Shown here one piece after another: positions 3-36,686 of a DNA stretch of 64,000 bases. Source of the DNA: Candidatus Stahliibacteriota bacterium (GTDB lineage Bacteria > Hydrothermota > Tepidihabitantia > B3-TA06); NCBI GenBank assembly GCA_004375895.1, contig SOJW01000020.1, positions 1,170 through 65,169 of the forward strand. The letters are read 5' to 3'. Position 1 is the first letter of the stretch; each line of letters starts with the position of its first letter. The notes beneath the pieces were generated by a model. The model had not been told where the DNA came from, ran no database searches, and worked only from the letters and a program-made list of their open reading frames with translations. The position numbers were made by a program, and so were the translations under genes.

Positions 3-710
3 CGCACCGGCAAGCGGACGATGATGTTCCTCCGGGGACCTGTATTCGCAAACATAATCCTTGCCGACGAGATCAACCGCACCCCGCCAAAGACTCAGGC
101 CGCGTTGCTTCAGGCGATGCAGGAGCGCCAGGTCACGGTGGGCGGCATCACCTACGACCTTGATCTTCCCTTCGCTGTGCTGGCCACTCAGAACCCAATC
201 GAGCAGGAGGGAACCTATCCTTTGCCCGAGGCGCAGCTTGACCGCTTTATGTTCTCCATACCCGTGGATTACCCGTCGTCTGACGAGGAGGAGGAGATCG
301 TGAAGGAGACCACCTCGGCGTATCTGCCCAAGCTTCAGGAGGTTGTCTCGAAGAAGGAGATCCTTGAGTTGCAGATGCTGATGCGCCGGGTGCCGGTCTC
401 GGATGCGCTTATCAAACAAGCGGTGGCGTTGGTGGCAAGGACAAGGCCCAACAAGGCCAACAAGCTTGGCTACATCAACCAGTATGTGAGCTGGGGAGCG
501 GGTCCGCGGGCGTCGCAGTATCTGATATTGGGGGCAAAGGCGCGGGCGATACTTCGGGGTGAGCTGACACCGGGTGAGGAGGATTTGAAGGCCATGGCGC
601 ATCCGGTATTAAGGCACAGGTTGGTGACCTCGTTCGCTGCCGAGGCTGAGGGTGTTACCACCGACGATCTCGTGGACAGGCTGCTTGCCGAGGCCGGCGC
701 TTTCACTTAA
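3..710 (+). CDS. MoxR-family AAA+ ATPase, C-terminal part (5' end outside window)
   Basis: ORF open to the left edge; [28 protein letters not shown]...[23 protein letters not shown] is the MoxR core. Confidence 0.85.
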
Positions 711-736
711 AGTTCGTGTGGCGCTTGGCAGGGGTG

Positions 737-838
737 TCAAATGGGGGATTCTACGATGCGGATTTCATCCTCGGTCAGGTCGTAGAGCTTGTATACAAGC
801 TTGTCAATCTCACGGTCGAAGCAATCGGTAGAGCAGAG
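737..838 (-). pseudogene. Relic of a restriction-modification enzyme C-terminus (no start codon)
   Basis: Minus-strand frame reads ...DREIDKLVYKLYDLTEDEIRIVESPI*; identical 23-aa motif to ORF 1990..2187; stop lies inside the GTGTCAAATGGGGG motif. Confidence 0.5.
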
Positions 839-840
839 AT

Positions 841-1941
841 TTAAGATTCCTTGCCAGCACGACCATGTTTGTGGCGATGGTGAAGGTCGGGCTTGTGACG
901 GTGACTATGGGTTACTTGCTCGTGCTCATGCAGATGAGAATGACTGTCGCCTGTCGTGCTTTCGTTATCCGAATGTGCGTGGTGTAGGTCGTCGTGGCGG
1001 TGGCGATGCTCATGCACAATCGGTCCATGAGTATGAATATGCGCGTGTCTTTCGCCGAGAAGGAGCCAGGCTCCAGCCACCATGAGTAGCGCTGAGACAG
1101 CGAACTGCCAGGTGAATGTCTCCCTGAAAAGCAGGAAAGAGAGGAGCATGCCAAAGAACGGGGCTGTTCCGAATAATGCGCTCGATCTTGCCGCTCCCAT
1201 ATTCCGCATGGCAAGGATAAAGAGAACGATACTGACGCCGTAGCTTAAGCTGCCGATGGCAAGGGCCAGGGCTATCAACTCAAAAGGCGGTAGCTTCTGC
1301 CGCAAGAGCAGCGCCAGGACAAGTGAAAAAAGCCCTGCAGCCAGTCCCTTAATCACAACTATCGCAAAAGGGTCTTTTCCGGAAATTGCGCGTGTGAAGT
1401 TGTTGTCCGCCCCCCAAAGCACGCAAGCACCGAGCACTCCAAGAGCGCCCAGGGAGAAACCCCACGCGCCGCCCCATTTTAGGGACAAAAGAATGCTTGC
1501 GAGCGTGATTACGGCGACTGCTATCCAGGTGCGCAAACCGCCGGACTCGCGGAAGAAGAGCACTGCGATGAGCGTTGTTGCGACAGCTTCGAAATTCAAA
1601 AGAAGTGAAGCAGTTGCAGCAGGCGTTGACTTGAGGCCGAAGAGAAAAACAATTGGCGCGGCTACCCCACCCGCAAGAACTGCTCCGGATAACCACGGCA
1701 GATCCTTAAGACGAAGAGGGGCCTCAGCCTGAGTCCAGGTTTTGCGAGTCTTGCGCAGTAACAGCAAAAGGAATGCCCCCAGCCCGCTTCCCAAATAAAG
1801 AAAGGAAGCCAGCGGAACCGGTTCTACACGGCTCAAAAGCAGCTTGGCCGCAGGTGCGCTAGCTCCAAACAGGGCTGCCGCCAGAAGGACTTGAAGGATT
1901 GGGAGTAGAAGCTGACTCTTGTAAGCGCCTTTGTTATTCAT
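841..1941 (-). CDS. EamA/DMT-family multipass transporter with a His-rich C-terminal tail
   Basis: Hydrophobic multipass protein with two EamA-like halves; last ~68 aa contain 22 His (HAHIHTHGPIVHEHRHRHDDLHHAHS...HSHRHKPDLHHRHKH). Confidence 0.8.
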   Translation of the reverse strand: MNNKGAYKSQLLLPILQVLLAAALFGASAPAAKLLLSRVEPVPLASFLYLGSGLGAFLLLLLRKTRKTWTQAEAPLRLKDLPWLSGAVLAGGVAAPIVFLFGLKSTPAATASLLLNFEAVATTLIAVLFFRESGGLRTWIAVAVITLASILLSLKWGGAWGFSLGALGVLGACVLWGADNNFTRAISGKDPFAIVVIKGLAAGLFSLVLALLLRQKLPPFELIALALAIGSLSYGVSIVLFILAMRNMGAARSSALFGTAPFFGMLLSFLLFRETFTWQFAVSALLMVAGAWLLLGERHAHIHTHGPIVHEHRHRHDDLHHAHSDNESTTGDSHSHLHEHEQVTHSHRHKPDLHHRHKHGRAGKES

Positions 1942-1989: not shown

Positions 1990-2187
1990 TCAATTCCCTT
2001 CCACAATCCTTATCTCATCCTCGGTGAGGTCGTAAAGCTTGTACACCAGCTTATCAATCTCCCGGTCGGTGTAGTCAATCTGACGCTTGAGCGCTTCGCT
2101 TTCGTGGGAGGACACCCTCTCAGGGTGTCCGGGCAGTCTGGAGAGGCTGCCCTCCTTTGAAGTCTCAAACTCCCTTAACTTATCCAT
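1990..2187 (-). CDS. 65-aa ORF carrying an RM-methyltransferase-type C-terminal helix (relic or small protein)
   Basis: ...DREIDKLVYKLYDLTEDEIRIVEGN*; LVYxLYxLTxEEIxIVE tail is typical of type IIG/type I RM enzymes; own consensus promoter 5 nt upstream of the ATG. Confidence 0.5.
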   Translation of the reverse strand: MDKLREFETSKEGSLSRLPGHPERVSSHESEALKRQIDYTDREIDKLVYKLYDLTEDEIRIVEGN

Positions 2188-2192
2188 GCCTA

Positions 2193-2221
2193 AATATACT
2201 CCAATTGTTAGGGAGTGTCAA
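2193..2221 (-). promoter_or_regulatory. Sigma-70 promoter, probably leaderless, for the 65-aa ORF
   Basis: Minus strand TTGACA-17 nt-TATATT-taggc-ATG; the -35 lies inside a GTGTCAAATGGGGG motif copy. Confidence 0.6.
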
Positions 2222-2231
2222 ATGGGGGGTA

Positions 2232-3461
2232 TCAGGTGATTAAGAATTCTTCTTCCTTGGCTTGTTTCCTTTGATTACATCTTCTATGGGCAAGTTGAGC
2301 GTTGCTTTCGACTGTTTTTCCGCCCTTCGCCCAAGGTACGATGTGGTCTAGTGTTACATTTTGATAGCGCTTGACTTCTTTTTTGCAAATCTGGCATATA
2401 TGTTTTGAATCCCGGCGCCAAATCTTTTGTTTCAAAGCCGCGGGAAAATTTCTCGTTTGATCTAGCTTTTGGGAATGCTTTAACACTAACTCACTTATTA
2501 TCTTCACTCTCTCCTCCCTCTTTGTTTTTTGTCTTATAGCACCCAATACACTCTTTTTGTACTTCTCGGAGGGATCAACTATGAAATCAAGTAAATCCTT
2601 CTTTAGCGCATCCGGTTTCCTTAGGATATAATACTTGTTGATCAGTAAACCTATCGCAAGAAACAAGCTAATGAAATGGGTTCTTTTACCGAAAGAAGAC
2701 GCTTGGATATCTTGTTTTGAAAACAATGTTTCGATATTCGCCAGGGTTTTTCTGAATTTGGATTTCAATTTTGATGATTTACTCTCCGATATATTTCTAT
2801 TGGTTTTTAAGCAGGAATCAAGCTCAGGCTTCCTACCGCTTGCCACGACACCCTTATTCAAGCAGTTACAAAGATCAATGATGTCGTCTAGTGGAATCAT
2901 TCTCTTGACGTTCTCGTTCGTGTATATAAGATCTTCATAGAAGTGTCTATGCTCAAGGTAAATTTCCTTTACCATTTCAAGGATGTTAGTTTTATCATAT
3001 TCATTATTCCATTTTTCCATGTTATTCAACTTTATGCCAGTACTGTTAATTCTTTGGAACAGAAAATTAATATCTGGTTGATTGAAATTCTGAAGATAGT
3101 GGCCATTGAATTTGTAAGTCGTGATCTTCTGTTGAGTCGTGCGATCTAAGTCTTTGAAAAAATATTCCTTACCATCTATCTTTATTACGAATTTGTTGTC
3201 TAGAAATCTATAGATAGCTGTAAGCCTTTGTTGCCCATCAACCACATAATGAACGCTGCATCCCTTCTTTGCATCGTATTCTTCTGTCAGATAGAACTTC
3301 GGAATTGGCATCCCTTTCAGAATAGAATCGATTAATAATTGCTCATCCCTAAGCTTCCATATATAACCTCTTTGCCAATCGGGATCAGAAATTAACTCCC
3401 CCCTATCCATTTTCCCCTTTAGCTCATGAATTCTCAATTCCCAATTATAGTATTCTACCAC
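2232..3461 (-). CDS. DUF262 (ParB-like, DGQQR) + C-terminal HNH endonuclease; GmrSD-like candidate type IV restriction enzyme
   Basis: YVVDGQQRLTAIYRF and FQRINSTGIKLNNMEKW (DUF262); CQICKK...LDHIVPWAKGG...NAQLAHRRCNQRK (HNH); GTG start after GGAGG; markedly AT-rich. Confidence 0.85.
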   Translation of the reverse strand: MVEYYNWELRIHELKGKMDRGELISDPDWQRGYIWKLRDEQLLIDSILKGMPIPKFYLTEEYDAKKGCSVHYVVDGQQRLTAIYRFLDNKFVIKIDGKEYFFKDLDRTTQQKITTYKFNGHYLQNFNQPDINFLFQRINSTGIKLNNMEKWNNEYDKTNILEMVKEIYLEHRHFYEDLIYTNENVKRMIPLDDIIDLCNCLNKGVVASGRKPELDSCLKTNRNISESKSSKLKSKFRKTLANIETLFSKQDIQASSFGKRTHFISLFLAIGLLINKYYILRKPDALKKDLLDFIVDPSEKYKKSVLGAIRQKTKREERVKIISELVLKHSQKLDQTRNFPAALKQKIWRRDSKHICQICKKEVKRYQNVTLDHIVPWAKGGKTVESNAQLAHRRCNQRKQAKEEEFLIT

Positions 3462-3480
3462 GGTAGCCTCCTTTTAGAAA

Positions 3481-3508
3481 ATTATAACCAAAATCCTAAA
3501 CTTGTCAA
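3481..3508 (-). promoter_or_regulatory. Consensus sigma-70 promoter of the DUF262-HNH gene
   Basis: Minus strand TTGACA-16 nt-TATAAT, then AAAAGGAGG and GTG start. Confidence 0.7.
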
Positions 3509-3562
3509 CCCCTCTTTGCGCTGGGCGGTGACTTGACATCTCCCTTGGGTCAGGTCAGCGTC

Positions 3563-3587
3563 GGTTTTTGCCAAAAATACCCCGAAA
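3563..3587 (+). repeat. Right-boundary box copy 1 (GGTTTTTGCCAAAAATACCCCGAAA)
   Basis: Near-identical to 8089..8115; followed by TGACGAGTT (3658..3666), as in copy 2. Confidence 0.7.
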
Positions 3588-3605
3588 TTGCCCCAAAATG
3601 TCCAA

Positions 3606-3649
3606 CTTTTGGGTAGCTTTTGACCACCTTTTGACCACCTTTTGACCAG
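3606..3649 (+). repeat. Four tandem 11-bp units CTTTTGACCAC/G (iteron-like)
   Basis: cttttgggtag cttttgaccac cttttgaccac cttttgaccag; exact 11-bp period; related pair at 12586..12607. Confidence 0.85.
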
Positions 3650-3706
3650 CTTAATTGTGACGAGTTCGATGTAAACCTGGCCTGGTTTGCCCGGCAAGGG
3701 CAGGGC

Positions 3707-3735
3707 TTGACATCGCCCTTGGGGAGGGGTATAGT
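3707..3735 (+). promoter_or_regulatory. Sigma-70 promoter of the GlmL-like gene
   Basis: TTGACA-17 nt-TATAGT, 18 nt before GTG 3754; the -35 region CTTGACATCNCCCTTGGG is duplicated at 3533..3550. Confidence 0.6.
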
Positions 3736-3753: not shown

Positions 3754-6606
3754 GTGAGATTGCGAGACGCAAAGCTTATCCTTGTTACCGACGTGGGCAG
3801 CACCACGACCAAGGCGCTTTTGATTGCGCGCGAGGGGGACAAGTTCCGCTTCGCCGGTGAGTTAGAGGTGCCCACCACCGTGGAGAAACCTGCAGAAGAC
3901 GTCAAGATTGGGGTGCTTGAGTCGGTGCGGGGGCTTGAGCAAAAGACCGGCACCACGCTCCTTGCCGACGGCAAGATAGCGATCCCATATTTGACCACCA
4001 GCTCGGCGGGCGGCGGGCTACAGATACTTGTGTTCGGGCTATCCGCACTTGAGACCGGCCGCGCGGCCCAGATGACCGCCTACGGCGCTGGCGGGGTGAT
4101 TCTGCGAACCTTCACCATAGACGATCAGATACCGGCGGTGGACAAGATGCGTCTCATCCGCGAGCTTCACCCTGATTTGATTCTGATGGCCGGCGGCGTT
4201 GACGGCGGTGCGATCTCGGGCGTGGTTCGTCTAGCCGAGCTTTTGTCCCTGGCCGATCCTGAGCCGAAGTTCAGGCTCTCGGAGCGCATCCCGCTTGTCT
4301 TCTGCGGCAATGTGGACGCGCGCGGGTTCGTTACACGTGTGCTTGAGGGGAACTTCGAGCTGTATATCACCGACAACATCCGCCCCAGCATGACCGAGCT
4401 TGCGACCGAGCCTGCCAAGCGCAAGGTGCACGAGCTTTTCATGGAGAACGTGATGGAGCGCGCGCCTGGCTACGCCGAGCTTAAGAACTGGGTGGCCGCG
4501 GACATCATGCCCACCCCTGCCGGGGTCGAGAATATCTTAAGGCTCTACGGCGAGAAGCTTAGCCAAAACATCCTTATGGTAGACATGGGCGGCGCGACCA
4601 CCGACATCTTCTCGAATATAGGCGGAGCGTATCATAGAACGGTGGCGGCCAACATCGGGATGAGCTACTCGGTATCGAACGTCCTTGCCGAGGTCGGCAT
4701 AGAGCGGATAATGCGGCACCTGCCTGGGGGTTTCACAGAGACCGAGGTGCGGGATTACATCTCGGGCAAGATGCTTAACCCGACCTACGTGCCCGGGCAG
4801 GCATGCGAGCGTGTGCTGGAGCAGGCCGCGGCCATTGAGGGGATCAACCTAGCCTGGGAGCAGCACAAGGATATGAACTTCAAGGTCTCGCGGATCGGAC
4901 GCCTGGACAGGAGACGATTACGCAAGGACGTCAATAAGTTCGAGGAGCTGTTTTATCTGAACGAAGAGCGCTACTTCCAGCTTTCGGATATCGATTTGAT
5001 CATCGGTGCTGGCGGCGTACTCTCGCATGCCGACCGAGTCGAAGAGGTCTTATGGATGCTTGCCGAGGGGTTCAGGCCATCGGGGATCACGAAGCTCGCG
5101 GTTGACCGCCACTTCAAGAGCCCTCACCTTGGGGTGCTGGCAAAGCTGGACGCTGAGGTTGCGCTTGATCTTTTTAAGGGCGAATGTCTGCAGGAGATCG
5201 GCTACGTTGTAGCGCCTGTGGGCAAGCTTCATCCCAAACGGCTGGCACTGACCATCAAGGATGCCCGAGGCTCAAAGGCCTATGCCCTTAAAGGCGGGGA
5301 GCTGCTGTATCTTCCCCAGGGCGGCGAGTTGGAGATACTGCTGGAGAAGGGGTTATGTATTCGCAACAACCTTGAGCGCTTTGAGTTAAAAACCTCCCTG
5401 CCCGTGCTTTTCGACTGCCGTGGCAGGGGCGAGAAGCTGTTGGGCGTGCCGCTTGCCTGCTCAGGGATAGAGGAGTTCTCACCAGCCGCAGGGACGTTCA
5501 AAACAGAAGTAAGGAAGGAAGCGGCTGAGATATCTGCAGGCACCTACAAAATCCAGCGCCGGCTCCCATACGAGGGCGAGATATTCGTCAAGCCCGGCCA
5601 GGAGGTGAAGCCTGACGATATCATAGGAGAGAACCGGTTCGGGCCGCCCAAGCTTTATATCATCGATATGCAGCGGGTGGTAGGATACGATAAGCCGTTA
5701 AGCGAGGAGGACTTCCTTGAAGGTCTCAAGGTAAAGATCGGTGATACGGTCAAACTCGGCCAGAACATCTTTCACTTCAAGCCCAAAGGCGCATTGCAGA
5801 TTCCATACAACTATCAATCCCCCATCAGGGGCATAGTGACGGGTATCGAGCAAGCCAGTAAGATGATAATAATGCGGGAGATCCAGGACTACGACGGCAG
5901 ACCCCACGTTGTAGACGTAGCCGGGAAGCTGGACATAAAGCCCGGACACATCAAGGCATACATGAAGTTCCAGGAGGGCGACTTTATCGAGATCGGTCGT
6001 ATAATTGCCCAAAACACATCCCAGGGCCGATTCCTGGTGGCAAAGGCCACCTCAACCGGGATGTTGAAGAAGATAGATACAAAGAAGGGCACGGTTACGA
6101 TCCAGTACCACATCACGCCGATACCGTTGCGCTCGTTCGTTTCGGGCAAGGTGAGCAGGGTGAAGGAGAACCTCGGCGTCGAGATAACCGGTCAGGGCAC
6201 AACGCTTTACGGCATCATAGGCTTCGGCGGCGAGGCTTCGGGCAAGATTCTTCTGAGCTCTCGCGAGCCGGACAGCTCTGCCAAAGCAAAGATTGTGGTT
6301 ACCTTTAATCCCGTTGACGAGGCTTTCTTGAGAAAGGCTGCTGAGGCAGGTGTTGCCGGGCTAATCGCGCCCTCGATTCACAACGCCGATTGGGTTCGCT
6401 TCTACGGGGAAGAGATCGGCGTGGCGCTGACAGGCGACGAGCAAATCCCGTTTACGTTGATACTTACCGAGGGGTTCGGTCGCTTTGCGATGAACGAGCG
6501 CTACCGCAGCTTCTTTGAGGCCGCGACGGGCAAGCTAGCCAGCCTTTCGGGCCGCACCCAGATACGCGCCGGCGTCACAAGACCCACGGTTATCGTAAGC
6601 GAATAG
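3754..6606 (+). CDS. GlmL/MutL-type ASKHA ATPase domain fused to a ~450-aa uncharacterised C-terminal region
   Basis: VTDVGSTTTKALL and MVDMGGATTDIFS phosphate-binding motifs, as in the glutamate-mutase accessory protein GlmL; C-terminal half has repeated KxGDxVxxGQxI barrel-like motifs. Confidence 0.6.
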   Translation: MRLRDAKLILVTDVGSTTTKALLIAREGDKFRFAGELEVPTTVEKPAEDVKIGVLESVRGLEQKTGTTLLADGKIAIPYLTTSSAGGGLQILVFGLSALETGRAAQMTAYGAGGVILRTFTIDDQIPAVDKMRLIRELHPDLILMAGGVDGGAISGVVRLAELLSLADPEPKFRLSERIPLVFCGNVDARGFVTRVLEGNFELYITDNIRPSMTELATEPAKRKVHELFMENVMERAPGYAELKNWVAADIMPTPAGVENILRLYGEKLSQNILMVDMGGATTDIFSNIGGAYHRTVAANIGMSYSVSNVLAEVGIERIMRHLPGGFTETEVRDYISGKMLNPTYVPGQACERVLEQAAAIEGINLAWEQHKDMNFKVSRIGRLDRRRLRKDVNKFEELFYLNEERYFQLSDIDLIIGAGGVLSHADRVEEVLWMLAEGFRPSGITKLAVDRHFKSPHLGVLAKLDAEVALDLFKGECLQEIGYVVAPVGKLHPKRLALTIKDARGSKAYALKGGELLYLPQGGELEILLEKGLCIRNNLERFELKTSLPVLFDCRGRGEKLLGVPLACSGIEEFSPAAGTFKTEVRKEAAEISAGTYKIQRRLPYEGEIFVKPGQEVKPDDIIGENRFGPPKLYIIDMQRVVGYDKPLSEEDFLEGLKVKIGDTVKLGQNIFHFKPKGALQIPYNYQSPIRGIVTGIEQASKMIIMREIQDYDGRPHVVDVAGKLDIKPGHIKAYMKFQEGDFIEIGRIIAQNTSQGRFLVAKATSTGMLKKIDTKKGTVTIQYHITPIPLRSFVSGKVSRVKENLGVEITGQGTTLYGIIGFGGEASGKILLSSREPDSSAKAKIVVTFNPVDEAFLRKAAEAGVAGLIAPSIHNADWVRFYGEEIGVALTGDEQIPFTLILTEGFGRFAMNERYRSFFEAATGKLASLSGRTQIRAGVTRPTVIVSE

Positions 6607-6617
6607 ACTATACTAAA

Positions 6618-6632
6618 GGTGTCAAATGGGGG
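6618..6632 (+). repeat. GGTGTCAAATGGGGG motif copy (left boundary of AT-rich islet 2)
   Basis: Same 15-mer at 733..747, 2215..2229 (1 mismatch) and 13958..13972 (1 mismatch). Confidence 0.8.
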
Positions 6633-6656: not shown

Positions 6657-6685
6657 TTGACAACGAAGAGATTCGGACTATTATT
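6657..6685 (+). promoter_or_regulatory. Putative promoter of the DUF488 gene
   Basis: TTGACA-17 nt-ATTATT in AT-rich DNA; GGAGA SD before ATG 6716. Confidence 0.4.
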
Positions 6686-6715: not shown

Positions 6716-7183
6716 ATGAAACCGTGGGTTCTCTATACAATCGGTTATCAAGGTATTTCAATCGAGGAACTGATTGGGGATCTCAAACAAAATAACGTGA
6801 AGTGCATAGTGGATGTTAGGCGTAATGCTATTTCCCGAAAGCAAGGTTTCTCAAAAGAATCTTTGCGGAAGTCATGCCAAGCTGCTGAGATTGAATACTT
6901 CCATATCCCTCAGTTGGGCATTGAAAGTAAGATGCGACGTGGGCTAAAGGCTAATTGGGAATATGTAAAGTTATTGGACACTTACGAGAAAGAGCTTCTC
7001 CCTCAGAAAGAAGAATATATAAATGAGCTTAGGAGAATCGTCGAATCGCAAGTCTGCGCGCTTTTCTGTTTTGAAGCGACTCCCCAACTATGCCATCGTA
7101 GTAGGCTCGCTGCTAAGTTAGAAGAAATATCCCATTTAAGGATTAGACATCTGGAGCCTGCTTGGGACTTAGCAAGTACATAA
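6716..7183 (+). CDS. DUF488-family protein
   Basis: LYTIGYQGISIEELI...KCIVDVRRNAISRKQGFSK...FCFEATPQLCHRS matches the DUF488 pattern. Confidence 0.75.
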   Translation: MKPWVLYTIGYQGISIEELIGDLKQNNVKCIVDVRRNAISRKQGFSKESLRKSCQAAEIEYFHIPQLGIESKMRRGLKANWEYVKLLDTYEKELLPQKEEYINELRRIVESQVCALFCFEATPQLCHRSRLAAKLEEISHLRIRHLEPAWDLAST

Positions 7184-7974
7184 AAAAGAAAGTTCTCATA
7201 ACAATTAAGACCTATCCCCTTCCTTCTCCATTCCACAGAGAAATAGTTTGTACTGGTGGGATTGAAGAAAACGGAGGGTTTATAAGACTTTATCCCATAA
7301 GTTTTAGATACCTAGATTGGTGGAGGAGATACAGAAAGTATGACTGGATAGAAGTGGAGTGTGAAAAAAGCAATGACCCTCGCAAGGAAAGCTATAAACC
7401 CAATCAGCAATCTATTAGGATAATTGGATATATCCCAACCAAAAGGGGGAATTGGGATGAAAGAGCCAAACACGTTTTGCCTAATTTGTCAAAATCCATA
7501 GAGGAGCTTAAAGAGCAACAGAAAATCGAGAAAACTTCTATGGGGATCATAAGACCCAAAGAGATAGAGGATTTAGTCGTAGAAAAGGATGAAGAAGATT
7601 GGCCAGATAGATGGAAGAAGGTTTTCAAACAGCTAAACCTCATAGGTCCAAATCAAAAGCCACTCGATAAAATACCCTTTAAGTTCTCCTATAAATTCAC
7701 TTGCGACGATGAAAGATGTCGGGGCCATAAGATGATGATCTCTGATTGGGAAGTCGGCGCATGTTATCTCAATGTTCTGAAAAGCGGTTCTTCCCCAGAA
7801 GAGGCGGCTCAAAAAGTACGCCAACAGTTTTTCGATAGGATCTGTTCCCCAAAACGGGATACGTATTTCTATGTAGGTACGCTTCTAATACACCCCCAAA
7901 CCTGGATCGTCGTGGGACTTTTTTATCCTAAAAAGAAAAACTTTCCTCAAAATAAACAGAAAAGATTTTTGTAA
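7162..7974 (+). CDS. Hypothetical 270-aa protein, no family recognised
   Basis: Long ORF in an AT-rich islet with no in-frame ATG near the 5' end (TTG 7162 overlaps the DUF488 stop by 22 nt); CDDERCRGHKMMISDWE Cys/His cluster. Confidence 0.6.
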   Translation: MGLSKYIKKKVLITIKTYPLPSPFHREIVCTGGIEENGGFIRLYPISFRYLDWWRRYRKYDWIEVECEKSNDPRKESYKPNQQSIRIIGYIPTKRGNWDERAKHVLPNLSKSIEELKEQQKIEKTSMGIIRPKEIEDLVVEKDEEDWPDRWKKVFKQLNLIGPNQKPLDKIPFKFSYKFTCDDERCRGHKMMISDWEVGACYLNVLKSGSSPEEAAQKVRQQFFDRICSPKRDTYFYVGTLLIHPQTWIVVGLFYPKKKNFPQNKQKRFL

Positions 7975-8088
7975 CCATAATTTTGATCCCTTTATTTCCT
8001 ACCTCTTACTTTTCGGCCTTTTGGCGTAGAGTAGGTAGAAGAGGGGGCGGAGGGAAATTGTGGCGGCCTTTTTTCACAAATCTGCACC

Positions 8089-8115
8089 GGGTTTTGCTCA
8101 AAAATACCCCAAAAA
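8089..8115 (+). repeat. Right-boundary box copy 2 (GGGTTTTGCTCAAAAATACCCCAAAAA)
   Basis: Aligns with 3563..3587; TGACGAGTT recurs at 8139..8147. Confidence 0.7.
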
Positions 8116-8170
8116 ATGCGACGAATGCCATTAAAACCTGACGAGTTTGCGCGGCGTGGGACGATATATC

Positions 8171-8198
8171 TTGACAAATAGACCGTGGCGGCTATGCT
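8171..8198 (+). promoter_or_regulatory. Sigma-70 promoter of the small OM protein gene
   Basis: TTGACA-16 nt-TATGCT, then TAGGAGG and ATG 8218. Confidence 0.6.
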
Positions 8199-8217
8199 TA
8201 TAAAATTAGGAGGCAAG

Positions 8218-8700
8218 ATGAAAAGGACACTTATGATTTCTGCGCTGCTTTTAATTGCTCTCGCAGGGGCAGCCCAGGCAGCGCACGCAAGCCATGGGGA
8301 CGTGGGCATCGGCTTCCAGCTTGGAGAACCAACCGGTATTACCGCCAAGTTCTGGCTTGACCGTACCAGCGCGATAGACGCGACCGTGGGCTGGAACTTG
8401 ATCAGCGACAGGTTTACCCTCCAGGCCGGGTATCTCTACCACTTCCCTCTGGATGTTCCCACAGGAGCCCTTGCCGCTTACGTTGGCGTGGGTGGATTGC
8501 TGGGCGGAGGCAGCTACCGTCCTGACCATCCCCACTATCCAGACGAGGCGTACATACTACTTGCCGGGCGCATTCCACTTGGTCTAGAGTATATCTACAG
8601 CCCGGTAAGCTTCTACGCGGAGCTTGACCCTCTTATTACCCTCTTGCCTGCAGTAGGACTCGGCTTCGGCGGAGGAATCGGCTTCAGGTTCTACTTTTAG
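8218..8700 (+). CDS. Small secreted protein, predicted outer-membrane beta-barrel
   Basis: Signal peptide MKRTLMISALLLIALAGAAQA; alternating Gly/aromatic beta-strand pattern; C-terminal GFRFYF. Confidence 0.6.
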   Translation: MKRTLMISALLLIALAGAAQAAHASHGDVGIGFQLGEPTGITAKFWLDRTSAIDATVGWNLISDRFTLQAGYLYHFPLDVPTGALAAYVGVGGLLGGGSYRPDHPHYPDEAYILLAGRIPLGLEYIYSPVSFYAELDPLITLLPAVGLGFGGGIGFRFYF

Positions 8701-8749: not shown

Positions 8750-8791
8750 CACCCAAAGGACGGGCACAAGCACCCAAAGGACGGGCACAAG
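8750..8791. repeat. Perfect 21-bp tandem duplication
   Basis: cacccaaaggacgggcacaag x2. Confidence 0.9.
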
Positions 8792-8844
8792 CGGGGACCC
8801 TGAAAATAAATACTCCTTTTGCGTAACCCTCTAAAGCATCACTC

Positions 8845-9546
8845 CTACCGCGTTACCGAATCAGGCGGCGTTATCGGGTGAGGGTCTTCCTGTGCGGAAA
8901 GTGACGATATCTCGAACGCCTGTGAAGGGGTGATCTGGGTGCCGCGATGCCTGAGGTATATCCTGGCCCAATCGTAAGGAGCTATCGTCACGTGCCAGGA
9001 GAGACCCATCTCCCAATCTTTGAAGAAGAAGAGGTAATGGGAAACGACCAGGATGTTAGGGCGTCCGGATGTTCCTGTCCAGGAGGCCTGTTCGTCTATT
9101 CCCAGTTCAGGATGGTTCTCAGCCAGCCACGGGATAAACCTGTCACGGACTTCAATAGCACTCTGTTCGTCTGTAGCGAAACCATCTACAACCGCAATCA
9201 ACACTTGCACAGTGTCGCGGTAAGAACCTCTTTCACCTTGTATGGTAACAACTACCGTGTCTTTAAGGCTCGAAGAATCAGGGATAACCGTAACCTCTGC
9301 GACCTTGTTCCCGTTTATAGGCGAATACTCTAGGAGAACCTCTGCACCCTCGGCTGAAGCCCTGATCTCTATCTCTTCTCCTCCCTCGTCTTCTTCAGGC
9401 CATGCAAGAAACACGCAGCGCCGCCCCACAAGGGCTTCCATTGTTCCAGGCACGACCTCAAGAGAGAATGCCTCATCCTTTGAACAGGCACTGAAAGAAC
9501 CTATCAAAAGGATTACGGTTACCACAAAAAGCTTTACCCTTAACAT
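8845..9546 (-). CDS. Hypothetical lipoprotein
   Basis: MLRVKLFVVTVILLIGSFSAC lipobox at internal Met; upstream ORF extension has no support. Confidence 0.6.
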   Translation of the reverse strand: MLRVKLFVVTVILLIGSFSACSKDEAFSLEVVPGTMEALVGRRCVFLAWPEEDEGGEEIEIRASAEGAEVLLEYSPINGNKVAEVTVIPDSSSLKDTVVVTIQGERGSYRDTVQVLIAVVDGFATDEQSAIEVRDRFIPWLAENHPELGIDEQASWTGTSGRPNILVVSHYLFFFKDWEMGLSWHVTIAPYDWARIYLRHRGTQITPSQAFEISSLSAQEDPHPITPPDSVTR

Positions 9547-9702
9547 ACTCTTTCTCTCCTTTCTACAAGAATTGATGCCCGCATTTCTGGACACAAAAGT
9601 CTTTATTCTCGAATTCACTCCTAATCCTGCCTTTAGAGAAGAGAGATTCAACACTCTCTAAAAATCTTCTGCGATTTTTTTGTCGAAGACAAAAAGGAGC
9701 AT

Positions 9703-9921
9703 TTACTTCCCCTTGAGGTTGGCCTCGAACCAGCGCAGGATGTGGTTCAGCCGTGCTATGCGACGGTCGGTGCGACCTGAGCGAGGAGGTTCGGGAATTT
9801 CGGCAGGATAACTCACCATCCCGGTGTGAACGCCGAGTTTCTTGCCTGCGACTTGACTCAGGGCACGTGTGGCCCGTCATATATCGCCAGGAACGAAGCG
9901 GAGAGTGATATTGCAATTCAT
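9703..9921 (-). pseudogene. Possible relic of an alpha/beta-hydrolase (S9 peptidase-like) C-terminus
   Basis: Minus frame LRFVPGDI*RATRALSQVAGKKLGVHTGMVSYPAE...RLNHILRWFEANLKGK* with an in-frame TGA. Confidence 0.3.
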
Positions 9922-10707: not shown

Positions 10708-10826
10708 GTGGAGGATACCCTCTCAGGGTGTTCCTTCTCAGGGTCCCAATATGTCATCCCTGCGGGATGACATGGGCAGGCTGAGAGCCTACCCTCCATA
10801 AGTCCGTTCTCCATATTAAAAGAAGG
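10708..10826 (+). repeat. REP-like repeat copy 1
   Basis: gtggaggatacc[ctctcagggtgt insertion]ccttctcagggtcccaatATGTCATCCCTGCGGGATGACATgggcagg... Confidence 0.9.
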
Positions 10827-10858
10827 TTTTCTTCCGATATTCCGCATACTCCGGGTAA

Positions 10859-11353
10859 TCATTCCTCACCCTCAACCCAAGCCCTCCATAGCCAGGGATA
10901 ATCATCAACCTTTTTCACCAGGCCTTTTCTGACTGGATTGGCACAGATGTATTCGACCTTGCTTTCGGCATGTTCATAGGAACGCAGGATGCGGTCAAAG
11001 TATTCCTTCTGCCACACCTTACCTTCCCTGCCTAACGCTCTATTGATACTGCGGGCTGAAGCTCCTTTTATCCCCTGCATAATCTCTGCTAGGCCGTAGG
11101 TGACGCCTTGATCATCCTTCAATGGAGTAATAATCATATGGACATGGTCAGGCATAACGACAACACCGTGAAGAAAAAACTTTTTCCCGTGGTCGTGCAG
11201 GCAGTGTTTAATAACCAGATGCCGAACTGATTCGGGAAGTATCCAGCGTTTGAAAGTTGAAAAGGTTACAAAAAGGGATTTCCCTTCTCTCTGCAGATGG
11301 GGCAGCTTCCGGCAGTAGCTTTCTTTAGCAGGTTTTGCAGACGGTCGTTTCAT
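10859..11353 (-). CDS. REP-associated tyrosine transposase (IS200/IS605 Y1 HUH family, RAYT-like)
   Basis: HUH motif MPDHVHMII; catalytic-Tyr helix VEYICANPVRKGL; 164 aa; no TnpB partner. Confidence 0.8.
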   Translation of the reverse strand: MKRPSAKPAKESYCRKLPHLQREGKSLFVTFSTFKRWILPESVRHLVIKHCLHDHGKKFFLHGVVVMPDHVHMIITPLKDDQGVTYGLAEIMQGIKGASARSINRALGREGKVWQKEYFDRILRSYEHAESKVEYICANPVRKGLVKKVDDYPWLWRAWVEGEE

Positions 11354-11370
11354 TTTCTAATCCTTTCCCC

Positions 11371-11475
11371 GTGGAGGATACCTTCTCAGGGTCCCAATAT
11401 GTCATCCCTGCGGGATGACATGGGCAGGCTGAGAGCCTACCCTCCATAAGTCCGTTCTCCATATTAAAAGAAGGA
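11371..11475 (+). repeat. REP-like repeat copy 2
   Basis: Same orientation and sequence as copy 1, without the 12-13 nt insertion. Confidence 0.9.
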
Positions 11476-11799: not shown

Positions 11800-11974
11800 G
11801 ATTTCTCCTCCATCTAAAGGAATAGCAGGTTTATTAACGATTATACTGAGGATCATAAGAAATTCACCCTTCCCCTTAATCCCCTTACCCTATGGGGTGC
11901 AGTAAAATTGGCACCCCAAGGGGCACGCTGCCCACCAGGGGAGGGGAATTGCTGTTTCCAGCTCAAGCGTAAGG

Positions 11975-12255: not shown

Positions 12256-12394
12256 AATAAAAAGAAATAAAAACGGGCCGACTTGAAAGTCGGCCCCTAC
12301 GAGGTTATTATTCAATGCTTTCGGGTTGGAACAGGCTTTTGAACAGACACGATGTATTGACCATGGACAGAGATAATCGAATACTACCGCCTCA

Positions 12395-12445: not shown

Positions 12446-12585
12446 ACAACAGCGGGCCGACCTAACGCTTGTGCCCCCGTCGGGTACGAAGCGGACGCCA
12501 TAGGCGTCAACGTCGGCCCCTACATTTTTCGCTCACCCCACACAGCTGCTACGCATCGTCGCGGGGACCCCGTAAGGGTGTCCAG

Positions 12586-12630
12586 CTTTTGACCAGCTTT
12601 TGACCAGTATTTGGGGAGTTTTTGTCACCC
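12586..12630 (+). repeat. Two 11-bp CTTTTGACCAG units plus an inverted, degenerate boundary box
   Basis: cttttgaccag x2, then tatttggggagtttttgtcaccc, resembling the reverse complement of TTGCCAAAAATACCCCGAAA. Confidence 0.6.
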
Positions 12631-12643
12631 TTTTTCTGAGACT

Positions 12644-13798
12644 TCAAAACAGCTGAACCCCTGCCGAGAATCCAGCCCAGATGCGGGTCCAGGTATTGCC
12701 GGAGCGGCCCTCATAAAGAGCAAGATCAAAGATGGGTATATCCGAACCGTCCTCCTCGGTGGAGACCCAGACGTTAATGGTCGGGCCTGCGGTTACGGCA
12801 AGCTTGGGGCTAATCTGCCAACCGGCGGTAATGCGCAGCTTGTTGAGCATGTTGAGTCCTTCCTGACTCCAGAATATCAGCCCTTCTGAGACATTGTAAC
12901 CCACAGCGTCGATATCGAGGAAGAACGGATCGGCCGGTATGTGTCCGCCGATCCCCAGTCCCAGCCTGCTTCTGAGAGGTGAACCCAGCGGCTGCAGTCC
13001 GACGGCATAAACGTTGTAGACGTGCTTGGAGCCGAGCTTTATACCCACGTTGAGAAGTGAGCTTTCATCCGTCCAGGCGTTAACGTGGAACTGCCCGTTC
13101 TTGACGATGCTGACGATGCCGATAGGTACGCCGTCGTGATCGGTGGCTACGTTAACCACGCCCAGCTGCAGGCCACGGGCGTGCCCCGCGATGTTAACCA
13201 CACCCGCCTGCGTGTACGTCTCGCCAAGCGCAATGTTAACCACACCTATCTGGACGGTACTGTTCCTGCCTACCATATTCCCGGCACCGGCAATCTGCAC
13301 TCCGGTTACGTCACCCAAGGCGAAGTTCATCACTCCGGCAAGTTGCAGCCCTGTGACATGGGTAAGTGTAATGTTTGCCACTCCGGCGAGCTGTGCACCC
13401 TCAAAGTCGCCTCGAACCACATTAGTTACGCCTGCGATTTGGGCAACACTGAATTCTCCACCGACAACGTCAATTAAGCCTGCGATCTGTAAGCCGGCCA
13501 CGTCGCCGCCTGCGAAGTTGCCCACACCTGCGGCTTGAAAACCTGTGACGTGACCCTTATCTATGTTTAATACAGAGCCTATCTCGCAGCCCTCGATGTT
13601 ACCGATAAGACCTCCGATTATGTTAAGCGAGAAGTTAGAAGTAACGTGAGTGTAGGGTGGACCATTCGAACCAAAGCCGGGAACGAACGAAACGGATACA
13701 GGCCTGTGGACAGGCTCGGCTTGGGCTGAGATCACCGACGGCATGAAAAGCGCCATGATACTGACGACTAAGATACAAATCCTTTCTGAGTTGCGCAT
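12644..13798 (-). CDS. Secreted repeat protein (LA_2272-like AGxxNxAxGxVxGxQxAG repeats) with beta-barrel-like C-terminus
   Basis: GGAGGAG SD + ATG 13798; signal peptide ...MPSVISAQA; about 10 tandem repeats, e.g. GLQIAGLIDVVGGEFSVAQIAGVTNVVRGDFEGAQLAGVANI. Confidence 0.7.
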   Translation of the reverse strand: MRNSERICILVVSIMALFMPSVISAQAEPVHRPVSVSFVPGFGSNGPPYTHVTSNFSLNIIGGLIGNIEGCEIGSVLNIDKGHVTGFQAAGVGNFAGGDVAGLQIAGLIDVVGGEFSVAQIAGVTNVVRGDFEGAQLAGVANITLTHVTGLQLAGVMNFALGDVTGVQIAGAGNMVGRNSTVQIGVVNIALGETYTQAGVVNIAGHARGLQLGVVNVATDHDGVPIGIVSIVKNGQFHVNAWTDESSLLNVGIKLGSKHVYNVYAVGLQPLGSPLRSRLGLGIGGHIPADPFFLDIDAVGYNVSEGLIFWSQEGLNMLNKLRITAGWQISPKLAVTAGPTINVWVSTEEDGSDIPIFDLALYEGRSGNTWTRIWAGFSAGVQLF

Positions 13799-13811
13799 AA
13801 AACTCCTCCTT

Positions 13812-13843
13812 GTGATCTTTTGCGCGAAGCGCAAAAGGAGCAT
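13812..13843 (-). repeat. ATGCTCCTTTT-hairpin-AAAAGATC element copy in a 5' UTR
   Basis: Minus strand ATGCTCCTTTTGCGCttcGCGCAAAAGATCAC, between promoter 13938..13965 and ATG 13798. Confidence 0.7.
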
Positions 13844-13937
13844 TGAAAACATTTGCTCCTCCTTTTGAGGACTGAACTTAAACTCTCTTGAAAGGGGCAC
13901 TCAATCTACGAAAGTAGTGCCATCCTAACTAAATAGA

Positions 13938-13965
13938 ATTATAGCTGAGACCGCGGGGGTGTCAA
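13938..13965 (-). promoter_or_regulatory. Consensus sigma-70 promoter of the repeat-protein gene
   Basis: Minus strand TTGACA-16 nt-TATAAT; the -35 lies in a GTGTCAAATG motif copy. Confidence 0.65.
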
Positions 13966-14076
13966 ATGTGGGATGGATAAAAGAACGCTGGTCGAGCGGG
14001 TGCCTGTGCCATAGAGGGGGAAGCCCGCTGCCGATACGATGCTTCCGACGGACGCCAATCGAGTCGGCAGGCGTCC

Positions 14077-36652: not shown

Positions 36653-36686
36653 TCTCCGATCTTTTCCCCGTAGGGGAAAAGGAGGA
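36653..36686 (-). repeat. AATTAATCCTCCTTTT-hairpin-AAAAGATCGGAG element copy abutting a stop codon
   Basis: Minus strand (AAT TAA)TCCTCCTTTTCCCCtacGGGGAAAAGATCGGAG; the TAA is the stop of gene 36687..38183. Confidence 0.8.

What the first reader, a model, noticed from the sequence alone, without database searches (positions are those of the whole stretch)
2214..3666. Two AT-rich cargo islets share the same left and right boundary motifs (cassette-like architecture)
Islet 1 carries the DUF262-HNH gene (2232-3461). Islet 2 carries DUF488 plus the 270-aa unknown (6716-7974). Both are visibly more AT-rich than their neighbours. Each starts just right of a copy of GGTGTCAAATGGGGG (2215-2229; 6618-6632). 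Each ends at a copy of GGTTTTTGCCAAAAATACCCCGAAA (3563-3587; 8089-8115) followed by TGACGAGTT (3658-3666; 8139-8147). A resident gene with its own TTGACA/TATAGT-type promoter follows 23-40 nt later in both cases. More left-motif copies lie at 733-747 and 13958-13972. A rearranged right-end copy lies at 12586-12630. Different cargo between identical ends suggests a site-specific insertion system or recombination hotspot. No integrase is present in the window, so any machinery would act in trans. I cannot tell from memory whether these ends are described.
Basis: partly seen in the sequence, partly recalled or inferred. Interest (0 to 1): 0.8.

Follow-up and report, generated by a model that had tools for sequence, protein, structure and literature searches.

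The report
Defence-gene hotspots with shared boundary modules
The two AT-rich islets hold anti-phage defence genes in swap-prone gaps between core genes of an uncultured WOR-3-type bacterium. The shared end motifs are real: they are the edges of two lineage-specific non-coding modules that bound such gaps in every related strain, each with different cargo.

Summary

**Cargo.** Islet 1 encodes a GmrSD_N-HNH nuclease. Islet 2 encodes the PADLOC candidate system PDC-M19.

**Relatives.** Eleven related strains (WOR-3/TA06/'Stahlbacteria' MAGs) carry at least 20 different, mostly defence, AT-rich cargo sets. They lie at the same two gaps flanking a conserved MutL-like gene, and at two or more further gaps.

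**Left motif.** It is the sharp, cargo-facing end of an L module of at least 35 nt. Eighteen unrelated sequences abut its G-run.

**Right box.** It belongs to an R module of about 200 nt. R holds an outward promoter for minus-strand cargo, CAAAAATACCCC, 3-7 eleven-base repeats and two TGACGAGTT copies, followed by the resident gene's promoter. Its cargo-facing edge is ragged.

**Mechanism.**
- No recombinase lies in cis in any locus.
- L forms no hairpin, and no empty site was found.
- Near-clonal strains with different cargo show diverged MutL ends around an identical centre. This is the mark of homologous exchange through the flanks.
- Module duplications and a probable inversion spread the modules between gaps.

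**Reading.** These are defence hotspots with conserved landing-pad modules, exchanged by homologous recombination.

**Open point.** How foreign genes first become joined so exactly to L is unexplained. A trans-acting site-specific system is therefore not excluded.

The parts
21..710 (+). 3' part of a MoxR-like AAA ATPase gene; the core gene on the left flank of hotspot A
   Evidence: Pfam bpMoxR/AAA_3 is annotated on the source contig. The gene is 95 % identical to L057 up to window 713.
715..747 (+). L module copy 1 (cgtgtggcgcttggcaggggtGTCAAATGGGGG). This is the true left boundary of variable region A.
   Evidence: Homology with L058 and L059 ends at 747 and 746.
748..835 (-). Relic of the C-terminal tail of a type IIG restriction-modification gene; reads ...DREIDKLVYKLYDLTEDEIRIVESPI* into L
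   Evidence: Direct repeat D5. The intact gene ends in the same way in L085. The 65-aa paralogue hits PADLOC REase_MTase_IIG tails.
841..1941 (-). EamA-family transporter gene with a His-rich tail. G+C is 0.55, yet it lies inside the variable segment and is absent from L057, L058 and L059 at this site.
1990..2187 (-). 65-aa chimeric ORF, read as a recombination scar. It joins the first 11 codons of an ATC_hydrolase gene, a hairpin (GGACACCCTCTCAGGGTGTCC) and a type IIG RM tail.
2207..2229 (+). L module copy 2 (short form, gttagggaGTGTCAAATGGGGGG). On the minus strand it supplies the -35 of a promoter (2221-2193).
   Evidence: Promoter scan: TTGACA-17-TATATT, 11 of 12.
2232..3461 (-). Cargo of islet 1: a GmrSD_N + HNH nuclease (type IV restriction-like; PADLOC NsnA-like). 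Its stop codon lies 5 nt from the C-run of L.
   Evidence: G+C 0.37.
3481..3512 (-). Outward promoter at the left edge of R (GGGGTTGACAAGTTT...TATAAT), which drives the minus-strand cargo. It contains the right-end motif TTGTCAACCCC.
   Evidence: 12 of 12 match. The sequence is shared through the -10 box with L057 and L062, which have different cargo.
3532..3705 (+). R module core. It comprises an 18-nt repeat of the MutL promoter (3532-3549), CAAAAATACCCC (3572-3583), an 11-mer array (3606-3649), TGACGAGTT (3658-3666) and a diverged second copy of it.
3707..3735 (+). Promoter of the resident MutL-like gene
   Evidence: TTGACA-17-TATAGT, 11 of 12. Conserved in all close relatives.
3754..6606 (+). 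Conserved MutL-like (PF13941, TIGR01319-type) gene, 950 aa; the core gene between hotspots A and B
6607..6632 (+). L module copy 3, a deletion derivative of the roughly 250-nt long form seen in L057-L059. It keeps gactatac plus taaagGTGTCAAATGGGGG.
6657..6684 (+). The cargo's own promoter for PDC-M19
   Evidence: TTGACA-16-TATTAT, 11 of 12
6716..7974 (+). Cargo of islet 2: PADLOC candidate defence system PDC-M19 (A = DUF488, 155 aa; B = 270 aa)
   Evidence: PDC-M19A E 5e-51 and PDC-M19B E 1.5e-77. G+C 0.39-0.42.
8005..8045 (+). Relic of the 3' end of a short-chain dehydrogenase gene, the ancestral convergent neighbour of MutL; it marks the right edge of hotspot B
   Evidence: It matches the SDR 3' ends in L058 and L059 and the relics in L085 and L094. 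SDR Pfam hit. L001 gene order.
8063..8160 (+). R module copy 2, a deletion derivative that lacks the 11-mer array. It keeps CAAAAATACCCC (8099-8110) and TGACGAGTT (8139-8147).
   Evidence: Full and intermediate versions occur upstream of the same gene in L085 and L094.
8171..8700 (+). Promoter and gene of a resident 160-aa signal-peptide protein (provisionally called OMP-like; no Pfam hit); the right flank of hotspot B
12568..12646 (+). Array of R-type 11-mers (CAGCTTTTGAC x2 plus variants), at a third variable site where L057/L092 carry an Mrr_cat restriction gene
13938..13972 (-). L-family copy 4, which serves as the -35 of the promoter of the 418-aa minus-strand gene. No islet lies beside it.
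   Evidence: TTGACA-16-TATAAT, 12 of 12. Conserved in L057, L058, L059, L084, L085 and L094. G+C is equal on both sides.

Best explanation
The islets are anti-phage defence cargo in recombination hotspots between core genes of one WOR-3/TA06-type lineage. The hotspots are MoxR | MutL-like | SDR/OMP-like, plus at least two further sites.

**The modules (shown)**
- The shared motifs are the cargo-facing parts of two lineage-specific non-coding modules.
- L is 35 to about 250 nt long and ends in ...GTCAAATGGGGG.
- Its last bases are also the last codons and the stop of a type IIG RM gene that still occupies the site in one strain.
- R is the roughly 200-nt divergent control region. It runs from an outward promoter for minus-strand cargo, through phased 11-bp repeats, to the promoter of the next core gene.

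**Exchange (shown as a pattern, inferred as a process)**
- Strains exchange whole islets by homologous recombination. Crossovers fall in the core genes and in these modules.
- Recombination among module copies duplicates them, inverts segments and moves cargo between hotspots.

**Not explained**
- The first joining of each foreign gene set to L is unexplained. The cause is either illegitimate joining followed by trimming down to a selected boundary, or an unknown targeted step.
For: **Cargo is defence and differs in every strain**
-.
- Cargo G+C is 0.35-0.47 against 0.55-0.61 for the core.

**L and R bound the islets**
- 18 of 20 L copies and 15 of 15 R copies are oriented as predicted.
- They are confined to the close lineage and absent from relatives at 72 % MutL identity or less.
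- They are also absent from a 70 % homologue of the cargo in a 35 % G+C contig. They are therefore resident, not cargo-borne.

**Mark of homologous recombination**
- L058 and L059 are 100 % identical in mid-MutL and to the right of hotspot B, but differ in cargo at both hotspots.
- The 900 nt of MutL next to each hotspot is only 91-97 % identical.
- L088 and L090 show the same pattern.

**Accretion and rearrangement through module homology**
- L084 has a duplicated MoxR-3'-end + L block (at least 60 nt) and duplicated R.
- L062 and L084 carry an extra R fused to another promoter at the -35 box.
- The MutL and IleRS loci are adjacent in L073 but separate in L058/L059-type genomes.
- The same cargo sits at different hotspots in different strains.

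**Scars of imprecise events**
- RM-tail relics, the 65-aa chimera, and MoxR, HslU and SDR fragments.

**No mobility gene in cis**
-.
Against: - Homologous exchange spreads existing alleles. It does not explain why 18 unrelated sequences abut L within about 3 nt of the same position.
- It also does not explain why minus-strand cargo ORFs end 0-10 nt from L, two of them using the TGA inside it.
- Random joining should leave variable foreign flanks.
- All 11 minus-strand cargo sets also end in one 12-mer, TTGTCAAC(C)CCC.
- L sits at several hotspots, which requires it to have been copied.
- The recombination inference rests on two near-clonal pairs from metagenome assemblies.
Confidence: 0.55

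Rival explanations
1. A cassette-capture system acts in trans. A recombinase encoded elsewhere inserts circular or linear cargo at a fixed point next to L. L then plays the part of attL and TTGTCAACCCCC the part of attR, with a shared TGTCAA core. Functionally this would resemble an integron: a resident outward promoter, tight ORF cassettes and a short site after the stop codon.
For: - The L junction is precise for 18 unrelated neighbours.
- Cargo stop codons lie 0-10 nt from L.
- All 11 minus-strand cargo sets end in TTGTCAAC(C)CCC.
- A resident promoter is shared through the -10 box by different cargo.
- Arrays of the form L-cargo-L-cargo-R occur in the window, L018, L059 and L084.
- The modules recur at a further hotspot.
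Against: - No recombinase lies in 13 loci of 17-23 kb.
- L has no dyad symmetry and no hairpin on either strand.
- The shared core is only 6 nt and equals a reversed -35 box.
- Plus-strand cargo lacks the right-end motif.
- Homology between copies of the same cargo runs about 45 nt past L.
- The right junction is ragged.
- The hypothetical empty site GGGGTGTCAACCCCC was not found in 1.2 Mb of loci.
- L is dispensable once the cargo is in place.
Confidence: 0.2
2. L and R are only expression signals and play no part in mobility. L would be a -35-type promoter box, or a C-rich Rho-loading/insulator tract that stops islet transcripts running antisense into the convergent core gene. R would be a curved or operator-rich divergent promoter region. 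Both would be kept by selection. Cargo would arrive by illegitimate recombination and be trimmed back to these functional edges.
For: - Two L copies are top-scoring promoters.
- The minus strand of L is unstructured and C-rich, with C:G of about 2-2.6.
- L lies between convergent genes.
- R lies between two divergent promoters, has 11-bp phased T-tracts and varies in repeat number between strains.
- Relics of partly deleted older cargo are present.
Against: - Most L copies lack a -10 box.
- L and R are absent from the other 50 kb of the window, so they are not generic signals.
- L copies at separate hotspots are homologous over at least 30 nt, which points to copying rather than convergence.
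- L is lost without visible consequence in L094 and at hotspot A of L018.
Confidence: 0.13
3. The islets are non-autonomous transposon-like cassettes (MIC- or MITE-style). Their ends would be L and the inverted 11-mer array of R, moved by a transposase encoded elsewhere, for instance the RAYT-like Y1 enzymes common in these genomes.
For: - L (GGTG-TCAAATGG) resembles one inverted 11-mer (GGTGGTCAAAAGG) at 11 of 13 positions. This is read from the sequence.
- The long L form carries an inverted 11-mer array.
- Multiple tandem binding-site-like repeats lie at one end.
- A Y1_Tnp gene lies in the window, and Y1_Tnp domains occur in relatives.
Against: - There are no target-site duplications.
- The outer edges of both modules are ragged or continuous with resident promoters.
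- The inverted arrays bracket MutL, not the cargo.
- The hairpins that flank the RAYT gene do not occur at islet ends.
- Viral and other loci lack the modules.
Confidence: 0.07

Closest known systems
Core defence hotspots (for example cDHS1 and cDHS2 of Pseudomonas aeruginosa; E. coli and Acinetobacter defence hotspots)
   Same: - Fixed gaps between conserved core genes hold different, low-G+C defence systems in different isolates.
- Closely related isolates differ in content.
- Many occupied sites hold no mobility gene.
- Transfer through the conserved flanks by homologous recombination has been proposed (PMC10250203).
   Different: - The islets here are small, at 1-5 kb and one to three genes.
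- No tRNA or tmRNA lies at the border.
- The borders are short non-coding modules repeated at several hotspots of one genome, with one sharp edge and a resident outward promoter. The paper read here (PMC10250203) does not describe any of this.
- The host is an uncultured WOR-3/TA06 lineage.
Minimal mobile elements (MMEs) of Neisseria
   Same: The definition fits. [quoted passage not shown] From my own knowledge, the cargo there is often restriction-modification genes.
   Different: MMEs are defined by their flanking genes, not by shared boundary motifs. Natural transformation is not known for this lineage.
Integrons (including sedentary chromosomal integrons that store defence cassettes)
   Same: - A resident promoter reads into tightly packed, exchangeable ORF units.
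- A short conserved site follows, or overlaps, the stop codon.
- The units form arrays.
   Different: - There is no IntI.
- There is no attC-type imperfect palindrome.
- Cargo occurs in both orientations, often with its own promoter.
- Core genes sit between the units.
Mosaic intergenic repeats (E. coli BIMEs/REP with RAYT; Neisseria NIMEs and Correia elements)
   Same: - The intergenic regions are mosaics of short reusable blocks, some of which supply promoters.
- The blocks lie between convergent genes.
- A RAYT-type gene is present in the genome.
   Different: - L is not palindromic.
- In the 64-kb window, L and R copies lie only in its first 14 kb. In relatives they lie at a few hotspots.
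- The RAYT-flanking hairpins are different sequences.
- This comparison rests on my own knowledge of those families.

Membership tests
Defence hotspot / minimal mobile element | The same pair of conserved flanking genes holds different whole-gene cargo in different strains | tested here: met
   There are 11 cargo sets upstream and 9 downstream of the MutL-like gene in 11 strains.
Defence hotspot / minimal mobile element | Cargo is incorporated or exchanged by homologous recombination in the flanks | tested here: met
   Near-clonal L058 and L059 have diverged MutL ends (91-97 %) beside swapped cargo and an identical centre and right flank. L088 and L090 show the same. This is a pattern, not a direct demonstration.
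Defence hotspot / minimal mobile element | No dedicated mobility gene inside the element | tested here: met
   Precomputed Pfam annotation of the loci, plus my own scans.
Integron | An integron integrase (IntI) lies next to the cassette array | tested here: not met
   No Phage_integrase hit in any locus.
Integron | An attC site (imperfect inverted repeats that fold as a hairpin) lies at the 3' end of each cassette | tested here: not met
   The L motif stays unpaired on both strands, and the fold energy of the regions is no better than shuffles. The motif has G-runs on both sides, so it has no dyad.
Integron | A resident promoter expresses promoterless cassettes | tested here: inconclusive
   A conserved outward promoter is shared by different minus-strand cargo. 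However, plus-strand cargo carries its own promoter.
Integrase-borne genomic island / prophage-like element | A recombinase gene, direct att repeats at both ends, often a tRNA target | tested here: not met
   There is no recombinase. No tRNA lies at the borders. The ends share only TGTCAA.
Transposon-type cassette (MIC/MITE) | Terminal inverted repeats and a target-site duplication | tested here: not met
   No duplication flanks either islet. L resembles one inverted 11-mer only weakly. The inverted arrays bracket MutL, not the cargo.
REP/BIME mobilised by RAYT | Palindromic REP units related to the repeats that flank the RAYT gene | tested here: not met
   The RAYT-flanking hairpin occurs only beside the gene. 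L is unstructured.
Generic promoter or terminator signal | Present at many genes regardless of islets | tested here: not met
   The window has four L copies, two R copies and one 11-mer relic array, all within its first 14 kb. Three of the four L copies border variable DNA.

The most novel reading that the evidence does not exclude
L and the TTGTCAACCCCC/R edge could be the working sites of a so far undescribed cassette-capture mechanism that acts in trans. One form would be a recombinase encoded elsewhere that joins foreign gene sets at one fixed nucleotide next to L, under a resident promoter: an integron-like platform without IntI in cis and without attC hairpins. Another form would have the G-rich L motif act as a cis initiator of recombination.
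Probability: 0.2. Interest if true: 0.85.

Novelty: new variant of a known kind. Interest (0 to 1): 0.55.

Why it matters
- Defence hotspots without mobility genes are common, but how they are filled is an open question.
- Here the hotspots are small and numerous, and they are bounded by short recognisable modules with one nucleotide-sharp edge. The question therefore becomes tractable: the modules can serve as probes for more hotspots, new defence genes, empty sites and a possible trans-acting enzyme.
- The case also shows defence-island turnover in an uncultured phylum.
- Several cargo genes have no known family. These include the 323/325 + 76 aa pair, the 741 + 211 aa pair and the 1181 aa and 1207 aa proteins. 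Their position marks them as candidate defence systems.

Tried and rejected
- **Viral contigs.** A scan for the left motif gave 25 single hits, mostly one unrelated phage family with different flanks. I treated these as chance.
- **Rfam.** Nothing but tRNAs in the window and four relatives.
- **tRNA-linked integration.** No tRNA lies at any border.
- **Cargo-borne motifs.** A 70 % homologue of the GmrSD-HNH gene, in a 35 % G+C contig, has neither motif.
- **Empty site.** GGGGTGTCAACCCCC with up to 2 mismatches gave only a cargo promoter in L084 and an unrelated site.
- **L as a promoter everywhere.** Only two of the four window copies have a -10 box. The long forms have none.
- **L as an intrinsic terminator or attC-like hairpin.** The motif is unstructured.
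- **R 11-mers as DnaA boxes.** TTGTCCAC-like variants exist, but the constant part is only CTTTTG. dnaA does not appear in the gene lists of the loci that cover about 60 kb of the window. I dropped this idea without a formal test.
- **RAYT as the mobiliser.** Its hairpins are not at the islet ends.
- **Recent transfer of the 325 + 76 aa pair between hotspots.** Its identity between L062 and L018 (78-85 %) is no higher than that of MutL (81-86 %), so there is no sign of recent transfer.
- **More distant relatives.** L001, L003, L005, L060, L075 and L006 have other neighbourhoods and no modules.
Full report
**Observation.** The left motif GGTGTCAAATGGGGG is present at 733 and 6618 exactly, and at 2214 and 13958 with one mismatch each. 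All four copies are on the + strand and none lies elsewhere in the window; 0.11 are expected by chance. The right 25-mer has no second copy within three substitutions. Its 12-nt core CAAAAATACCCC is exact at 3572 and 8099, and TGACGAGTT is exact at 3658 and 8139. Both right sites match one longer module found intact in a relative, at 95-100 % identity. Strong promoters follow both. Both islets have 0.36-0.42 G+C against 0.55-0.61 around them.

**Cargo.**
- Islet 1 (2232-3461, minus strand) encodes a GmrSD_N + HNH nuclease, which is NsnA-like in PADLOC.
- Islet 2 (6716-7974) matches both proteins of the PADLOC candidate system PDC-M19 (E 5e-51 and 1.5e-77).
- The 65-aa ORF at 1990-2187 and the fragment at 748-835 are C-terminal tails of type IIG restriction-modification enzymes.

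**Source.**
- The first 37 kb of the window is contig JAUUXQ010000012.1 of a MAG, GCA_030588455.1. It is joined near 37,040 to contig 11 of the same MAG.
- The 950-aa gene between the islets is a conserved MutL-like (PF13941) gene.
- Its close homologues (85-96 % identity) come from MAGs labelled WOR-3, TA06 or Stahlbacteria.
- The only mobility-type gene in the window is a RAYT-like Y1_Tnp at 10859-11353.

**Comparison of eleven strains.** In every close relative the MutL-like gene is flanked by AT-rich genes, and these differ from strain to strain.

| Strain | Upstream of MutL (hotspot A) | Downstream of MutL (hotspot B) |
|---|---|---|
| window | GmrSD-HNH (plus EamA and relics) | PDC-M19 |
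| L062 | 323 + 76 aa | PDC-M19 |
| L057/L092 | kinase/ORC-CDC6-like 1221 aa + methylase | methylase + 185 aa |
| L084 | 153 + 400 aa + kinase; and a type I RM (S + M) | 510 aa + TIR protein |
| L058 | OLD-type ATPase-nuclease | 741 + 211 aa |
| L085 | not determined (contig starts about 560 nt upstream of MutL, in a partial plus-strand ORF); its right flank matches that of L058's OLD-type cargo | intact type IIG RM |
| L059 | 206 aa + dCTP-deaminase-like | PycTM-like + Shedu |
| L073 | PD-Lambda-5 | Eco57I-like methylase + AccI-like nuclease |
| L018 | 242 aa + Csa3-like + two HTH proteins | 325 + 76 aa, plus a type IIG RM |
| L094 | 291 + 372 aa | DUF5131 + GMT-wHTH (also in L021, MAG095) |
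| L002 (MAG095) | a 55 %-identical PDC-M19 | see L021, in the L094 row |

There are further variable sites:
- A third site holds an Mrr nuclease in L057 where the window has only the 11-mer array at 12568-12646.
- A fourth, beside the IleRS operon, differs between L088 and L090.
- Cargo G+C is 0.35-0.47 throughout.

**The left module (L).**
- The 15-mer is the 3' end of a longer module, consensus CGTGTGGGGTGATT(AAAG/GGC)TTAGGGGTGTCAAATGGGGG (alignment A3).
- L057-L059 and L084 have a form of about 250 nt after MutL. It also holds hairpins and an inverted copy of the R 11-mers.
- The window copy at 6618 is a deletion derivative of that long form.
- The outer edge of L is ragged, whereas the cargo-facing edge is sharp.
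- In pairwise BLAST of strains with different cargo, homology stops within about 3 nt of the G-run in at least seven comparisons.
- Eighteen unrelated sequences abut the G-run.
- Minus-strand cargo ORFs stop 0-10 nt from L.
- The type IIG RM of L085 (ending ...IRIVESPI*) and the L073 methylase use the stop codon inside L. The RM-tail relics beside L in the window, L018 and L059 are remnants of that RM gene.
- Two copies (2214 and 13958) act as the -35 of top-scoring minus-strand promoters. The others lack a -10 box.
- L is unstructured on both strands, and its minus strand is C-rich.
- L is degenerate at hotspot A in L057 and L073. It is missing at hotspot A of L018 and L094, and at hotspot B of L094, where the cargo is otherwise the same as in L021.

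**The right module (R).** R spans about 200 nt and contains, from left to right:
- a minus-strand promoter, GGGGTTGACAAGTTT...TATAAT (3508-3481, 12 of 12);
- CAAAAATACCCC;
- phased 11-mers (CTTTTGACCAC and variants, 3-7 copies depending on the strain);
- TGACGAGTTCGATGTAAACC followed by TGACGAGTTTGCGCGGC;
- the promoter of the next core gene.

Further points on R:
- The window's second copy (8063-8160) has lost the array. L085 and L094 show the full and an intermediate form before the same gene.
- The window, L057 and L062 share the outward promoter through its -10 box although their cargo differs.
- All 11 minus-strand cargo sets end in TTGTCAAC(C)CCC, which is the -35 of related promoters. 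Plus-strand cargo does not.
- The start of homology on this side varies: window 3480, 3490, 3531, 3532, 3551 and 3572.

**Association.** In orientation, 18 of 20 L copies have the lower-G+C side on their G-run face (mean 0.43 against 0.54). The exceptions are promoter copies. All 15 R copies have the AT-rich side on their left. Neither module occurs in relatives at 72 % MutL identity or less, nor in viral contigs.

**How the islets move.**
- L058 and L059 are near-clonal. They are 100 % identical through the middle of MutL and for 2 kb to the right of hotspot B. Yet their cargo differs at both hotspots.
- The 900 nt of MutL next to each hotspot is only 91-97 % identical. This is the pattern expected when an islet is replaced by homologous recombination with one crossover inside MutL.
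- At hotspot A the other crossover lies within about 60 nt of L. At hotspot B the right flank is identical from the SDR stop codon onward.
- L088 and L090 repeat the pattern at the IleRS hotspot, with homology resuming exactly at L.
- Module copies also recombine with each other:
  - L084 has two copies of the MoxR-3'-end + L block and two R copies around an ATC_hydrolase gene.
  - L062 and L084 carry an R copy fused at the -35 box to a different promoter.
  - The MutL and IleRS loci are contiguous in L073 but apart in L058/L059-type genomes.
  - The 325 + 76 aa pair lies upstream of MutL in L062 and downstream in L018, with homology running about 45 nt past L.
- Fragments of MoxR, HslU, SDR and RM genes, and the 65-aa chimera, are scars of imprecise events.

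**What is missing for a site-specific system.**
- No recombinase lies in any of 13 loci.
- L has no hairpin or dyad.
- No att-type repeat longer than TGTCAA is shared by the ends.
- There is no target-site duplication.
- No empty site was found.
- A 70 % homologue of the islet-1 gene in an unrelated low-G+C contig carries no motif.

**Conclusion.** These are small defence hotspots of the kind described in Pseudomonas (PMC10250203). They also fit the definition of minimal mobile elements (PMC3082526). Two features are unusual:
- The boundaries are short non-coding modules reused at several hotspots.
- One of those boundaries is nucleotide-sharp and is paired with a resident outward promoter.

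Homologous recombination explains the spread and shuffling of islets. The first joining of each foreign gene set to L remains unexplained, and that gap leaves about a one-in-five chance of a targeted, trans-acting mechanism.

Noticed in passing
window 10733-11474: A RAYT/IS200-like Y1_Tnp gene (10859-11353, minus strand) is flanked by 94-nt perfect direct repeats (10733-10826 and 11381-11474). Each repeat holds a hairpin with a 10-bp stem, ATGTCATCCC-TGC-GGGATGACAT. Among all fetched loci this hairpin occurs only here.
   Followed up: partly
window 1990-2187 and 2110-2130, 10713-10733: The 65-aa ORF is a three-part chimera: the first 11 codons of an ATC_hydrolase gene (intact in L062 and L084), a 21-nt perfect hairpin that also sits beside the RAYT gene, and a type IIG RM tail.
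   Followed up: partly
L088 10001-13513; L090 10001-13393: In relatives, a type IIG restriction-modification gene carries an in-frame Y1_Tnp (PF01797) domain inside its Eco57I methylase domain. It is 1130-1170 aa, against 1039 aa without the insert.
   Followed up: no
window about 37,040: The window is not one contig. Contig 12 of GCA_030588455.1 ends here and contig 11 follows.
   Followed up: partly
window 3532-3549 and 3706-3723: An 18-nt direct repeat (CTTGACATC[T/G]CCCTTGGG, 17 of 18 identical) brackets the R core. The right copy is the -35 box plus spacer of the MutL promoter. The pattern resembles a promoter duplication, or an insertion of the 156-nt core.
   Followed up: partly
window 3606-3649; L057 12327-12390; L058 and L059 12895-12958; L084 10289-10483: The number of 11-mer repeats varies from 3 to 7 between strains. 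In four strains a second, inverted array lies just 3' of MutL, so MutL is bracketed by inverted arrays. Some variants (TTGTCCAC) resemble high-G+C DnaA boxes.
   Followed up: partly
window 8845-9654: A 269-aa ORF with no Pfam hit is present here but replaced by about 80 nt in L057. This is another small presence/absence difference.
   Followed up: no
window 9670-9703, 13811-13844, 36655-36688: A 34-nt motif (a TTTTGNNC-GAAG-GNNCAAAA hairpin followed by GGAGCATT) recurs three times. At 13811 it lies in the 5' leader of the 418-aa gene.
   Followed up: no
window 8750-8795; L018 13610-13660: A tandem 22-nt unit CACCCAAAGGACGGGCACAAGC lies downstream of the OMP-like gene. It recurs, inverted, in the outer part of an L module in L018 and L088.
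   Followed up: no
window 11880-11935 and 12275-12305, 12455-12530: Further short blocks are shared with relatives. One is accctatgggg...gtaaaatt...ccccaagg. Another is the hairpin GGGCCGAC-NTGAAR-GTCGGCCC followed by CTAC, which sits at the left edge of the Mrr islet in L057 and between L and Shedu in L059.
   Followed up: partly
L018 15300-16200: The intact type IIG RM gene of L018 is itself a mosaic. It has a G+C-rich methylase part and an AT-rich (0.38) central part, which may be a swapped target-recognition region.
   Followed up: no
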